This document shows positions 21,455 to 23,600 of a stretch of DNA of 64,000 bases, piece after piece. The notes beneath the pieces are model-generated. The model had not been told where the DNA came from. It saw only the letters and a list, made by a program, of their open reading frames with translations, and ran no database searches. The translations under genes and the position numbers were made by a program. Where the stretch lies: positions 70,003-134,002 of the forward strand of contig JAGDVY010000040.1 in NCBI GenBank assembly GCA_023255875.1, given 5' to 3'. Origin of the DNA: Hydrogenobacter sp. (GTDB lineage Bacteria > Aquificota > Aquificia > Aquificales > Aquificaceae). The stretch's first letter is position 1, and each line of letters begins with the position of its first letter.

Positions 21455-22624
21455 ATGGCTGATCACTTGCTTGTATCTTTTATAGGCAAGGCTACAAAAA
21501 GCAAGGAAGAGGGAACGGGCTACCAAAAGATAACCTACAGGTTTGAAGATGGAAGCACTTATGAAAGCTCCTTCTTCACCGTAGCCATCCACAGATACCT
21601 AAAAGAGAAACAGAACATAAAGCCTGATCTGCTTATAGTGGGCACAAACGGTTCTACTTGGGGTGAGCTCTTCCAACTTTCCGAAAGTGAGCGGGTTTTT
21701 GAGATAGCCAGGAGCTTAGAAGAAGGTTTTGACCACGAGAAACTAAAACTGCTAGAAGAGATCCTCTCTGAGGAGTTGGGCGTTAGAGTAAGACTGCTAT
21801 CAGTAGAGGACAAACCACCAAGAGTTTTTGAAATAGCAAAGGAGACCTTCAACATCCTTAGCACCGCAAACTACAAAGAGGTGTTCCTTGACATAACCCA
21901 CGCTTATAGGTATATGCCTTACTCTGTTTTGAGCGCTTTTGTGATTTATAAGAGCCTTAGGAACTTCAAACTGAGGATATTCTACGGCTTTTTGGAACAC
22001 GGGCGCAGGGAAGACCCAAAGCCAGTCTATGAGCTCACGGACATATCCCACCTTTTAGACATCTCAAATGCGGTGTCTCTCATTACTTCCACAGGAGATT
22101 TTAGGGCTTACTACGACAAGCTTGGTGCGGGAGACATTGCCCAAAAAGCCTACTACAAAATAGAAACTAATCAACAACCACGCGCCGAGTTAAAGGAGCT
22201 CATGGAGTTTAAACCACCAGATCAGTACGATACACTGCACAAGGAGATAAACCGTCTGATATCAGAGCTTAACAAAGATTACCTGGACGAGCGAATGGTC
22301 AGCAGGGCAAAGTTCTTCGCAGACAGGGGTCAGTACCTAAAGGCTATAGTACTGCTTTATGAGGCTTTTATGGTGCTTGCTTGCAGAAAACAGAATAGAC
22401 AAGACTGCAACAAATACAAAACCAGAGAAGAGATAAGGGACCAGCTTAGAAATAATGAGAAGTTTGAGTTTTTGAGCCACCTAAGAAACGTCATAGTACA
22501 TGGCAGTCAGCCAGAGGGTAAGTATGGAGGAAAGATACAGCGCATACTTGGCTCAGAAGAAGAGCTCAAAAAAGTGTTTGATGAGTACATAAGCTACTAT
22601 AACCAGCTCAGGAAGGAACTATGA
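21455..22624 (+). CDS. csx1: Csx1/Csm6-family CARF-HEPN ribonuclease (TM1812/DxTHG type)
   Basis: LLVSFIG..YQKITYRF..S.FF, LLIVGT.GS.W, DITHAYRYMP (DxTH), C-terminal HEPN RNVIVH (Rx4H). Confidence 0.85.
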   Translation: MADHLLVSFIGKATKSKEEGTGYQKITYRFEDGSTYESSFFTVAIHRYLKEKQNIKPDLLIVGTNGSTWGELFQLSESERVFEIARSLEEGFDHEKLKLLEEILSEELGVRVRLLSVEDKPPRVFEIAKETFNILSTANYKEVFLDITHAYRYMPYSVLSAFVIYKSLRNFKLRIFYGFLEHGRREDPKPVYELTDISHLLDISNAVSLITSTGDFRAYYDKLGAGDIAQKAYYKIETNQQPRAELKELMEFKPPDQYDTLHKEINRLISELNKDYLDERMVSRAKFFADRGQYLKAIVLLYEAFMVLACRKQNRQDCNKYKTREEIRDQLRNNEKFEFLSHLRNVIVHGSQPEGKYGGKIQRILGSEEELKKVFDEYISYYNQLRKEL

Positions 22625-23406
22625 GCTTAAAGTCTTACAGAACAATAAGGACCTTGTTGGGAGAGTTCAGTCTATTGGATGTAGTGTCCATTACTGTATT
22701 TTTTGGAGCGCTACCTGAGGTTTTGTTCTCGTTAATTGACTTCTTCCTTCAGGGAGAAGGGAACTCTCTAAAAAGGGCTGGGCTTTTGGCTTTGATAACC
22801 GCTGTAGCACTCGCGTACATTTCTGTGAGGTACAAAAAGCTAAAGGAGTTCTTTGAGGAGAGAGATTACCAAGTTGAGGAAGTTTTACCTTCTGCTCAGA
22901 GAGTTTTTATAACCGCCCTTAGCCTTCCAAAGCTGTCAGAAGAAGAGCTTTTGGACATAAAGCATAAGAAAAGCTTAAAGGAAATACGAGAAAAGTATGG
23001 GAAAAATTTTACTTGGATACCTTACCTTGAAACCATAGAAGACCTAAGGAGTAAAGCAAAGCTGGAAAAGATAGTGGTGATACCTTCAGAGCAGTCCAAA
23101 AATTACTACAAGCACTTTGAGAAGATGGTAAATGAGCTATTTGGAGGCTTGAGTGTAGAGCAGTTTGGACCTGCCAATTACGATGACTTTGATGACATCC
23201 AAAAGGCTATGAGGAGTGCATTAAAAGAACTCCAAAGTCGGGGCTACAAGAAAAGTGAGATCATTGTAGGTATAACTGGGGGGACTTCCGCTTTCAGCGT
23301 TGTTGCCTCTGCTCTTACTCTACCTTCAAAAATGGCACTATCCTATTACACACAGAATGCTAAAAAGATAGTTTATGTAAATATTGAGCCAGTTGAGAAC
23401 GAATGA
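22621..23406 (+). CDS. Two-TM plus CARF-like domain protein (Cam1-like membrane effector)
   Basis: Two N-terminal hydrophobic helices; WIPYLETI, VVIPSEQS, NYDDFDDI, IIVGITGGTSAFS CARF-type motifs; ATGA overlap with csx1. Confidence 0.7.
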   Translation: MSLKSYRTIRTLLGEFSLLDVVSITVFFGALPEVLFSLIDFFLQGEGNSLKRAGLLALITAVALAYISVRYKKLKEFFEERDYQVEEVLPSAQRVFITALSLPKLSEEELLDIKHKKSLKEIREKYGKNFTWIPYLETIEDLRSKAKLEKIVVIPSEQSKNYYKHFEKMVNELFGGLSVEQFGPANYDDFDDIQKAMRSALKELQSRGYKKSEIIVGITGGTSAFSVVASALTLPSKMALSYYTQNAKKIVYVNIEPVENE

Positions 23407-23456: not shown

Positions 23457-23600
23457 ATGAAAAAACTTTTTGCTGTTGCGTTAGCGGTATCTCTGTATGG
23501 CTGTCAGGAAGCCAACCAAGTGGATAACTCAGAGCTGTGCGTGGTGAATGACTTTAGGCTCATTTTAACCATAGGATCATTTACAACAAAAGTGGTGTAG
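23457..23600 (+). CDS. Small lipoprotein (47 aa), possibly a frameshifted remnant
   Basis: SD GAGGAGG, MKKLFAVALAVSLYGC lipobox; an alternative frame continues to TAA at 23629. Confidence 0.5.
   Translation: MKKLFAVALAVSLYGCQEANQVDNSELCVVNDFRLILTIGSFTTKVV

What the first reader, a model, noticed from the sequence alone, without database searches (positions are those of the whole stretch)
22621..23406. 2TM-CARF membrane effector (Cam1-like) in an Aquificae-like genome
Seen: two N-terminal hydrophobic helices followed by a Rossmann-like domain with CARF-type elements (WIPYLETI, VVIPSEQS, NYDDFDDI, IIVGITGGTSAFS). Established: Cam1 has this TM-TM-CARF layout, binds cA4 and depolarises the membrane during type III CRISPR immunity. 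Inference: this is a divergent, possibly thermophilic, membrane effector activated by a cyclic oligonucleotide.
Basis: partly seen in the sequence, partly recalled or inferred. Interest (0 to 1): 0.8.

Follow-up and report, generated by a model that had tools for sequence, protein, structure and literature searches.

The report
Membrane-anchored CARF sensor beside Csx1
This gene in a hot-spring Hydrogenobacter encodes a small membrane protein with a cyclic-oligoadenylate sensor (CARF) domain, a catalogued but untested type of CRISPR type III accessory effector, so it is a fairly ordinary find with a few unusual residue changes.

Summary
ORF 22621-23406(+) encodes a 261-aa protein with two N-terminal transmembrane helices and a C-terminal CARF domain. 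It matches PADLOC 'TM+CARF' (5.6e-23) and 'CARF, 2 TMs' (6.4e-18). The AF2 model has pLDDT 92.5, and its best PDB fold match is the Cam1 CARF domain.

The gene overlaps csx1 (CARF-HEPN RNase) by 4 nt (ATGA). The pair forms an orphan two-effector cassette next to gyrA. The genome's type III-A csm locus, with HD and GGDD motifs in Cas10, is on another contig with no CARF gene beside it.

- Cam1 has one TM helix, not two.
- This protein is not a Cam1 family member. Identity is 13-15% and the profile E-value is 0.0076.
- It belongs to the 2TM-CARF family described bioinformatically in 2018. That family occurs in 59 of 178 genomes of this phylum and often lies beside cas10.

The most likely function is a cOA-gated (probably cA4) membrane-perturbing effector acting alongside Csx1. 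This is inferred, not shown.

The twist is that this protein sits in a divergent subclade. It has lost family-conserved residues (D217G, K223S, W30A, H142L) yet is under purifying selection (dN/dS 0.20).

Verdict: a new member of a known kind, of low to moderate interest.

The parts
21455..22624 (+). csx1: a 389-aa CARF-HEPN RNase, the first gene of the two-gene cassette. The DxTHG-type motif is LDITHAYRYMP and the HEPN Rx4H motif is RNVIVH.
   Evidence: PADLOC CARF2--CARF_HEPN PDLC01837, E 4.3e-91, full length. NCBIfam TIGR02221 scores 90.9 bits, above its cut-off of 76.25. Pfam Csx1_CARF is above its cut-off. The motifs were read from the translation.
22610..22624 (+). Translational coupling. 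A Shine-Dalgarno-like AGGAAGGA (22610-22617) lies inside the end of csx1. The start codon of the TM-CARF gene overlaps the csx1 stop as ATGA (22621-22624).
   Evidence: Read directly from the sequence and the ORF coordinates.
22621..23406 (+). The 2TM-CARF gene (261 aa), the subject of the finding.
   Evidence: dN/dS is 0.20 against the H. hydrogenophilus ortholog. The exact protein is present in 4 metagenome assemblies.
22672..22752 (+). TM helix 1 (residues 18-44). It carries the P32-E33 equivalent of the family's conserved W-x-P-D motif. E33 is encoded at 22717-22719.
   Evidence: Hydropathy and AF2 helix 18-44. Position 33 is D or E in 43 of 48 family members, P32 is kept in 32 of 48, and W30 in 37 of 48, but W30 is Ala here.
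22759..22836 (+). TM helix 2 (residues 47-72). It continues as a stalk helix to residue 79, leading into the CARF domain.
   Evidence: Hydropathy and AF2 helix 47-79.
22867..23391 (+). CARF domain (residues 83-257). Strand beta1 ends in S101. A variable helical insert spans 102-130. VVIPS ends at S156. Then come the motif II strand and loop and a C-terminal beta-hairpin.
   Evidence: AF2 secondary structure. Foldseek hits: Cam1 CARF 8t66/8t65/8t64 at E 2.5e-5 with target-normalised TM-score 0.63-0.71, followed by Csx1-Crn2, Sso1393, Can2 and Card1. Invariant family positions S156, T219, G221 and Y242 are retained.
23269..23289 (+). CARF motif II, G217-I-T-G-G-T-S223. The family consensus is D-[IV]-T-G-G-x-K. 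The Asp is present in all 44 members outside this subclade, and the Lys aligns with the K of GGRK in Crn1 Sso2081.
   Evidence: Column counts. HMM alignment to Sso2081 DITGGRK. All other phylum members examined have D[IVM]T[GA]G..K-type motifs.

Best explanation
The gene encodes a cytoplasm-facing CARF sensor anchored in the inner membrane by an N-terminal two-helix hairpin. It is the second gene of a translationally coupled csx1-(2TM-CARF) cassette.

The proposed mechanism has four steps:
1. The genome's type III-A Csm complex, encoded on another contig, recognises an invader transcript. Its Cas10 Palm domain then makes cyclic oligoadenylate, most likely cA4.
2. The messenger diffuses and binds the CARF domains of both cassette products.
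3. Csx1 is switched on as a non-specific RNase.
4. The 2TM-CARF protein, as a dimer or tetramer, transmits ligand-induced movement through the TM2 stalk helix to the TM hairpin. This opens or disorders a membrane path lined by the conserved acidic residue of TM1 (E33). The membrane depolarises and growth stops, so the phage cannot complete its cycle.

What is shown here:
- the architecture, the fold and the family membership
- the linkage to csx1
- the presence of a cyclase-competent Cas10 in the same genome
- family-level linkage to cas10, csm and cmr operons
- purifying selection on the gene

What is inferred by analogy with Cam1, Cap1 and Chp1:
- the identity of the ligand
- the oligomeric state
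- pore formation and depolarisation
For: - **Family:** full-length matches to PADLOC 'TM+CARF', 'CARF, 2 TMs' and CARF8--CARF_TM. All 48 aligned relatives hit the same models.
- **Fold:** the AF2 model has pLDDT 92.5, with a TM hairpin plus a CARF domain. The best PDB fold hits are cA4- and cA6-bound Cam1 CARF, and all other strong hits are cOA-binding CARF domains.
- **TM1 is not a plain anchor:** G14 is kept in 39 of 48 members, W30 in 37, P32 in 32 and D/E33 in 43. This parallels the conserved pore-lining D17 of Cam1 (PMC10808066).
- **Family linkage to cas10:** 59 of 178 genomes in the phylum carry a member. In many of them it lies 0.1-6 kb from csm1 or cmr2, for example G121, G153, G168, G173, G004, G010 and G083.
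- **A recurring cassette:** the csx1 + 2TM-CARF pair appears as a unit in the window, G028:C19, G028:C4 and G019:C24.
- **Own genome:** the csm locus is cas10-csm2-csm3-csm4-csm5-cas6. Cas10 has HD (residues 15-16) and GGDD (residue 629) motifs, and no CARF gene was found among the genes flanking the locus.
- **Gene integrity:** the ATGA overlap and a Shine-Dalgarno-like sequence are present. dN/dS is 0.20. An identical protein occurs in 4 assemblies.
- **Precedents:** Cam1, Cap1 and Chp1 are all cA4-activated depolarisers.
Against: - There are no functional data of any kind.
- The protein departs from 15 of 28 family-conserved positions. These include the otherwise invariant Asp of motif II (G217), the motif II Lys (S223), W30 in TM1 and H142. 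Ligand affinity, ligand specificity or gating may therefore differ from the rest of the family, or be lost.
- The gene is not next to any cas gene or CRISPR array.
- The ortholog in H. hydrogenophilus carries a 1-nt deletion.
- No member of this exact family has been characterised experimentally in the literature I could search.
- No multimer model could be made.
Confidence: 0.68

Rival explanations
1. It is a membrane-tethered ring nuclease or cOA sink. In this reading the CARF domain has no effector role. It binds and degrades or sequesters cOA at the membrane, setting the threshold or the off-switch for the co-encoded Csx1 RNase.
For: - Apart from the TM hairpin, the protein is CARF-only, like the stand-alone Crn1 ring nucleases.
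- By sequence profile, the family's best PDB match is Crn1 Sso2081 (E 1e-4), ahead of Cam1 (0.0076). The motif D-I-T-G-G-x-K aligns with Sso2081 DITGGRK.
- The ring nucleases Sso1393 and Sis0811 are among the top fold hits.
- It is always paired with another self-sufficient effector, either Csx1 or a Card1-like nuclease.
Against: - This protein lacks the Lys of GGxK (S223) that aligns with the Sso2081 motif. From my own knowledge, that Lys is important for Crn1 catalysis.
- TM1 has a conserved G...W-x-P-D/E signature, which a passive anchor would not need.
- The best structural match is the Cam1 CARF.
- The TM-CARF proteins activated by cOA that have been studied (Cam1, Cap1, Chp1) are toxic effectors. 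The Panoptes II CARF-TM protein is also a toxic effector, with inverted regulation.
Confidence: 0.13
2. It is a decaying or ligand-blind remnant. The orphan cassette has drifted away from its cas locus, and the TM-CARF sensor no longer responds to cOA. The gene is on its way to loss.
For: - The otherwise invariant D217, and also K223, W30, H142 and Q241, are lost. Only 13 of 28 conserved positions are kept.
- No cas gene or CRISPR array was found on the 134-kb contig: the cas10 search and the array scan hit other contigs only.
- The H. hydrogenophilus ortholog has a frameshift, and truncated variants P0004 and P0005 exist in public data.
- The neighbouring lipoprotein gene is truncated in the window.
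- Synteny upstream breaks exactly at the csx1 start.
Against: - dN/dS is 0.20 over the whole gene.
- The same substitutions are shared by paralogs only 42-49% identical (P0006, P0007). This is therefore an old, maintained subclade and not recent decay.
- The reading frame is intact, with a Shine-Dalgarno-like sequence and an ATGA overlap with an intact csx1.
- An identical protein occurs in four assemblies.
- The core CARF positions S101, S156, T219, G221, S226 and Y242 are retained.
Confidence: 0.12
3. It works by inverted (guard) logic, as in type II Panoptes. A constitutively made cyclic nucleotide would keep the TM-CARF protein off, and depletion of that nucleotide by a phage sponge or ring nuclease would turn it on.
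For: - A CARF-TM effector regulated in this inverted way has been demonstrated (PMC13577387).
- The gene lies far from any cas locus.
- The ligand-binding motif is atypical.
Against: - No mCpol gene is adjacent; the neighbour is csx1. The only non-Cas10 Palm-like hit in the genome is a PAS-GGDEF protein.
- The Panoptes effector has the opposite domain order, with CARF at the N-terminus and the TM region at the C-terminus.
- Canonical members of this family sit inside csm and cmr operons.
Confidence: 0.03

Closest known systems
Membrane-associated 2TM-CARF family (Shmakov et al. 2018 'CRISPR-linked genes'; PADLOC PDLC01168 'CARF, 2 TMs', PDLC01053 'TM+CARF', PDLC01947 CARF8--CARF_TM)
   Same: - It has two N-terminal TM helices and a cytosolic canonical CARF domain, in about 250-280 aa.
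- It gives full-length profile matches.
- The family is linked to type III-A and type III-B loci.
- NCBI relatives are annotated only as 'hypothetical protein'.
   Different: - It belongs to a divergent subclade with GITGGTS in place of D-x-T-G-G-x-K and A-L-P-E in place of W-x-P-D.
- It is encoded in an orphan csx1 cassette, not inside a cas operon.
Cam1 (Nitrosococcus halophilus; Baca et al. 2024, PMC10808066)
   Same: - It is a small TM + CARF protein with no enzymatic domain.
- The Cam1 CARF is the best PDB fold match: E 2.5e-5, target-normalised TM-score 0.63-0.71.
- It has a conserved acidic residue within the TM helix.
- It often co-occurs with Csx1 (PMC11229360).
- A cA4-gated depolariser is the presumed working model.
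   Different: - Cam1 has one TM helix and 206 aa; this protein has two TM helices and 261 aa.
- Identity over the CARF domain is 13-15%.
- phmmer finds no hit, and the profile E-value is only 0.0076.
- The Cam1 cA4-contact residues could not be mapped here.
Cap1 (Parafilimonas terrae; bioRxiv 10.1101/2025.11.13.688252)
   Same: - It has two N-terminal TM helices followed by a cOA sensor.
- Cap1 forms a tetrameric pore that is opened by cA4.
   Different: - Cap1 has a non-canonical CARF-like fold that binds one cA4 per tetramer, plus a DUF4579 domain.
- This protein has a canonical CARF domain and no extra domain.
Crn1 ring nucleases (Sso2081, Sso1393, Sis0811)
   Same: - They have a CARF-only soluble part.
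- Sso2081 is the best sequence-profile match in the PDB (E 1e-4).
- The motif II region aligns.
   Different: - The ring nucleases are soluble and have no TM helices.
- This protein has Ser where the GGxK Lys stands.
Type II Panoptes CARF-TM effector (PMC13577387)
   Same: It combines a CARF domain with a TM region, and membrane perturbation is controlled by a cyclic oligoadenylate.
   Different: - The domain order is opposite.
- It is partnered with mCpol, not Csx1.
- Its ligand is cA3, which keeps it off.

Membership tests
2TM-CARF ('CARF, 2 TMs' / CARF8--CARF_TM) | Full-length match to the family profiles | tested here: met
   PDLC01053 at E 5.6e-23 (residues 7-257 on profile positions 12-210 of 212), PDLC01168 at 6.4e-18 and PDLC01947 at 6.9e-13.
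2TM-CARF ('CARF, 2 TMs' / CARF8--CARF_TM) | Two N-terminal transmembrane helices | tested here: met
   Hydropathy peaks at residues 21-39 and 53-71. AF2 helices at 18-44 and 47-79.
2TM-CARF ('CARF, 2 TMs' / CARF8--CARF_TM) | C-terminal canonical CARF fold | tested here: met
   The model has pLDDT 92.5. The top 33 Foldseek PDB hits are all CARF proteins.
2TM-CARF ('CARF, 2 TMs' / CARF8--CARF_TM) | Family signature residues: W-x-P-D in TM1 and D-x-T-G-G-x-K in motif II | tested here: not met
   The protein has A-L-P-E and G-I-T-G-G-T-S. P, E, T, G and G are kept, while W30, D217 and K223 are lost. It keeps 13 of 28 conserved positions. The same pattern appears in relatives P0006 and P0007, so it marks a subclade and does not exclude the protein from the family.
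2TM-CARF ('CARF, 2 TMs' / CARF8--CARF_TM) | Genomic association with a type III CRISPR-Cas system | tested here: inconclusive
   At family level the feature is met. For this gene, a complete type III-A locus with a GGDD Cas10 is in the same genome but on contig C2, not on the 134-kb contig C18. The immediate neighbour is csx1.
Cam1 | Single N-terminal TM helix followed by a short linker and a CARF domain (about 206 aa) | tested here: not met
   This protein has two TM helices and 261 aa. The Cam1 architecture is taken from PMC10808066.
Cam1 | Detectable sequence homology to NhCam1 | tested here: not met
   phmmer against the PDB gives no Cam1 hit at E<=10. The 48-sequence profile gives E 0.0076 over only profile positions 175-255.
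Cam1 | CARF domain structurally like that of Cam1 | tested here: met
   8t66_A at E 2.5e-5. Target-normalised TM-scores are 0.63-0.71 for 8t66, 8t65 and 8t64.
Cam1 | Conserved acidic pore-lining residue in the TM helix | tested here: inconclusive
   E33 is D or E in 43 of 48 relatives. Whether it lines a pore cannot be judged without a multimer model.
Cam1 | Binds cA4 and depolarises the membrane | not testable with these tools
   This needs ITC or EMSA and membrane-potential assays.
Cap1 | 2 TM helices + non-canonical CARF-like domain + DUF4579 | tested here: not met
   There is no DUF4579 hit in Pfam. The domain is a canonical CARF by fold, and the protein ends right after the CARF domain.
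Type II Panoptes CARF-TM | N-terminal CARF, C-terminal TM region and an adjacent mCpol cyclase | tested here: not met
   The domain order is opposite. The neighbour is csx1. The only other Palm-like hit in the genome is a PAS-GGDEF protein.
Crn1 ring nuclease | Soluble CARF-only protein with a catalytic Lys in GGxK | tested here: not met
   The protein is membrane-anchored and has S223 at the Lys position.

The most novel reading that the evidence does not exclude
The Hydrogenobacter subclade (GIT[GAS]GT[ST], no motif II Asp or Lys, no TM1 Trp) may be a re-tuned sensor. It could respond to a different messenger than the canonical DxTGGxK members, such as cA6, cA3 or a non-cOA nucleotide. Alternatively it could be gated through physical coupling to its invariable partner Csx1. 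In that case the orphan csx1-(2TM-CARF) cassette would be a self-contained two-branch module with its own specificity, not a generic Cam1 analogue.
Probability: 0.12. Interest if true: 0.6.

Novelty: new member of a known kind. Interest (0 to 1): 0.3.

Why it matters
TM-CARF proteins are a common class of predicted type III CRISPR accessory effectors. Only Cam1, Cap1 and Chp1, plus the non-CARF Csx23, have been studied, and none of them has the plain '2 TM + canonical CARF' layout seen here.

A thermostable member from Hydrogenobacter could be a good structural target for seeing how a canonical dimeric CARF domain gates a TM hairpin. Natural variants at the motif II Asp and Lys give a built-in test of which residues set ligand specificity.

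The finding also documents that in this genome the csm locus carries no effector of its own. Its apparent effectors sit in trans as a two-gene cassette. None of this overturns current understanding.

Tried and rejected
- **Single-sequence AF2** gave an unusable model (pLDDT 44). It was replaced by the alignment-based model.
- **The search for homologous proteins**, the word-index search, found only the query itself.
- **The search for related loci on genome contigs** failed four times: searches found no conserved stretch, and searches found no confirmed hit. Context was obtained through the genome search and the fetch from genomes instead.
- **tblastn against plasmids and phages** gave no match, so there is no evidence of carriage on a mobile element.
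- **Two short one-TM relatives** (P0019, P0037) were tested as possible Cam1-family bridges. Neither hits Cam1 in the PDB, so they are probably truncated 2TM members.
- **The second weak Csm1-profile hit** on contig C27 was checked as a possible mCpol. It is a PAS-PAS-GGDEF diguanylate cyclase.
- **Sample accessions** were not found in the paper library.
- **Makarova 2020**, the CARF classification paper, is not held. The 'CARF8' label therefore rests only on PADLOC model names.
- **Cam1 cA4-contact residues** (S75/N76, T97, K160, Y180/T183, F185, L189) could not be mapped onto this protein. Neither the Foldseek alignment nor the Cam1 sequence was available.
Full report
**Observation**

The ORF at 22621-23406(+) is real: ATG start, 261 codons, TGA stop.

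A Kyte-Doolittle scan gives two strong hydrophobic segments in the first 72 residues. An AlphaFold2 model built on a 48-sequence alignment has mean pLDDT 92.5 and pTM 0.81. It shows a short N-terminal amphipathic helix (3-13), a helical hairpin (18-44 and 47-79) and then a beta-alpha-beta domain (83-257). The single-sequence model was useless (pLDDT 44).

**Identity of the protein**

- Pfam sees only a sub-threshold CARF_Card1 match, and NCBIfam a sub-threshold TIGR02710 CARF match.
- PADLOC gives full-length matches to PDLC01053 'TM+CARF' (5.6e-23), PDLC01168 'CARF, 2 TMs' (6.4e-18) and PDLC01947 'CARF8--CARF_TM' (6.9e-13), followed by dozens of CARF models.
- An exhaustive HMMER search of 1.84 billion representatives found 113 relatives at E<=1e-3 but only 4 below 1e-30. 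Most are 250-290 aa with two predicted TM helices and a D-x-T-G-G-x-K motif. All 48 that I aligned hit the same PADLOC models.
- Foldseek of the model against the PDB returns the Cam1 CARF domain first: 8t66_A at E 2.5e-5, with target-normalised TM-scores of 0.63-0.71 and 13-15% identity. Csx1-Crn2, Sso1393, Can2, Sis0811, Card1, Cami1 and Cdn1 follow, all of them cOA-binding CARF domains.

**Relation to Cam1**

NhCam1 is 206 aa with one 24-residue TM helix (PMC10808066).

By sequence the relation is marginal. phmmer of the protein against the PDB finds no CARF at all. The family profile reaches Cam1 only at E 0.0076, behind the Crn1 ring nuclease Sso2081 at 1e-4.

The characterised effector with two TM helices, Cap1, has a non-canonical CARF-like domain and a DUF4579. 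Chp1 adds a HAD domain.

The plain '2 TM + CARF' family was described bioinformatically by Shmakov et al. in 2018, with the CARF domain predicted to be cytosolic and linkage to type III-A, III-B and III-D loci (bioRxiv 10.1101/270033). I found no experimental study of it. NCBI calls its members 'hypothetical protein'.

**Context in the window**

The upstream gene, 21455-22624(+), is a Csx1 CARF-HEPN RNase. It matches PDLC01837 at 4.3e-91 and TIGR02221 above the cut-off, and it has an LDITH motif and an RNVIVH HEPN motif. Its stop overlaps the TM-CARF start as ATGA, and a Shine-Dalgarno-like AGGAAGGA lies 3 nt upstream of that start. The two genes form one operon.

Upstream, on the other strand, is a DUF4382 gene. 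Downstream is a truncated small lipoprotein ORF and then gyrA. The window contains no CRISPR array and no cas gene.

**Context in the genome**

The window is C18:70003-134002 of a 1.25-Mb, 42-contig assembly that is 99.9% complete.

Contig C2 carries a complete type III-A module: cas10/csm1, csm2, csm3, csm4, csm5 and cas6. Its Cas10 has HD (residues 15-16) and GGDD (YSGGDDLF, residue 629) motifs, so cOA synthesis is plausible.

No CARF gene was found among the genes flanking that module. The neighbours are a 792-aa unknown protein, a 1013-aa helicase-like protein, hisF and mutL on one side, and PhoD and TonB-system genes on the other. CRISPR arrays lie at the ends of contigs C4 and C13.

The assembly contains no second csx1 and no second 2TM-CARF gene. 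The cassette on C18 is therefore the best candidate for the effector arm of this Csm system, acting in trans.

**Relatives**

A profile search of 178 genomes in the phylum found the family in 59 of them (43 of 114 high-quality genomes) and in 21 of 34 genera. Placing these hits against Cas10 hits and fetched loci gives three patterns:

- **Inside or beside csm operons.** G121 is 127 bp from cas10. In G153 the gene directly follows cas6. In G168 it follows a Card1-like nuclease. In G004, G035, G061 and G173 it is 0.7-6 kb away.
- **At the end of cmr operons.** A longer variant of 320-350 aa with about 4 TM helices sits a constant ~3.4 kb from cmr2 in at least ten genomes.
- **Detached from any cas10.** In the complete genomes G046, G047, G130 and G174, the gene is 140 kb to more than 1 Mb away.

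The csx1 + 2TM-CARF pair recurs as a unit in the window, G028:C19 (the ortholog), G028:C4 (a paralog: Csx1 59% and TM-CARF 47% identical) and G019:C24.

G028 is Hydrogenobacter hydrogenophilus. Other hosts include Pampinifervens florentissimum, Hydrogenivirga caldilitoris and Thermovibrio ammonificans. This confirms the Aquificota assignment.

**What is unusual about this copy**

Across the 44 relatives outside its subclade, 28 positions are at least 70% conserved. This protein keeps 13 of them.

- **Retained:** G14, L100, S101, W132, S156, S159, F166, T219, G221, S226 and Y242.
- **Changed:** W30A, D33E, M134P, P135Y, H142L, D217G (Asp in all 44 others), K223S, Q241S and others.

The Lys position aligns with the K of DITGGRK in Crn1. 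All other phylum members examined have D[IVM]T[GA]G..K-type motifs, and nearly all have W-x-P-D.

The same substitutions are shared by P0006 and P0007 (49% and 42% identical) and partly by P0008. They therefore define an old subclade and are not a sign of fresh decay.

Against the H. hydrogenophilus ortholog (95% nucleotide identity), dN/dS is 0.20. That ortholog carries a single 1-nt deletion in a T-run that splits it into 138-aa and 110-aa ORFs. This is either a very recent inactivation or a sequencing error.

The exact window protein occurs in four independent metagenome assemblies with identical neighbours.

**Mechanism**

The best-supported reading is a cOA-gated membrane effector working in parallel with Csx1. 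Csm detects a target RNA, and the Cas10 Palm domain makes cOA. cA4 is the likely species because Csx1 and the studied TM-CARF effectors Cam1, Cap1 and Chp1 use it (PMC11229360). The CARF dimer then closes on the ligand, and the TM2 stalk helix transmits the movement to the TM hairpin. The hairpin carries a conserved Pro-Asp/Glu in TM1, comparable to the pore-lining D17 of Cam1. The result is ion leak, depolarisation and growth arrest.

Only the anatomy, the family, the linkage and the selection are shown here. Ligand, oligomer and pore are inferences.

The rivals, with my confidence in each:

- A membrane-tethered ring nuclease or cOA sink (0.13). The missing Lys and the conserved TM1 signature weigh against it.
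- A ligand-blind remnant (0.12). The dN/dS value and the age of the subclade weigh against it.
- Panoptes-like inverted control (0.03). There is no mCpol, and the domain order is opposite.

**Verdict**

This is a new, somewhat divergent member of a catalogued but experimentally untouched family, and it is not a Cam1 homologue in the strict sense. Interest is 0.3.

Noticed in passing
L003:12040-17452 (own genome, contig C2:29040-34452, minus strand, directly upstream of cas10): Two large genes are co-oriented with the csm operon and abut it. One is a 792-aa protein with no Pfam or NCBIfam hit and only a weak PADLOC pAgo match (E 7e-5). The other is a 1013-aa protein with a Helicase_C domain and a weak Cas3d match. 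They could be an uncharacterised defence or accessory pair attached to the type III-A locus.
   Followed up: partly
window 23457-23600 (+): A 47-aa ORF with a lipoprotein signal peptide (MKKLFAVALAVSLYGC) and a strong GAGGAGG ribosome-binding site. It is the truncated remnant of a 97-aa gene that is intact in H. hydrogenophilus. The window copy has an internal deletion of about 93 nt and a frame change.
   Followed up: yes
L024:9626-10410 (H. hydrogenophilus, G028:C19): The ortholog of the 2TM-CARF gene carries a 1-nt deletion in a T-run at about codon 130, which splits it into 138-aa and 110-aa ORFs. The upstream csx1 is intact. A further 318-aa gene with weak similarity to a CARF4--CARF_PDDEXK nuclease region overlaps the csx1 start. 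Synteny with the window begins exactly at the csx1 start codon.
   Followed up: partly
L024:10998-13921 (H. hydrogenophilus): A fused trehalose-6-phosphate synthase/phosphatase gene (724 aa) lies between the cassette and gyrA in H. hydrogenophilus and is absent from the window. Only the first 177 codons of gyrA are found there, and the rest is not within the next 6 kb. This could be an insertion, a rearrangement or a misassembly.
   Followed up: no
e.g. L032:10015-11034 (Hydrogenivirga caldilitoris, G010:C1); also G083, G024, G087, G089, G132, G134, G138: A longer variant of the family (320-350 aa), with about 4 predicted TM helices in its representative-set relatives. Several examined copies, including the one in L032, lack the DxTGGxK motif. 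It sits at a constant ~3.4 kb from cmr2 in many Aquificota genomes and appears to be a fixed component of their type III-B operons.
   Followed up: partly
L002:1522-3033 (own genome, contig C27): A PAS-PAS-GGDEF diguanylate cyclase (503 aa). It gives a weak false-positive match to the Cas10/Csm1 profile through its Palm domain.
   Followed up: yes
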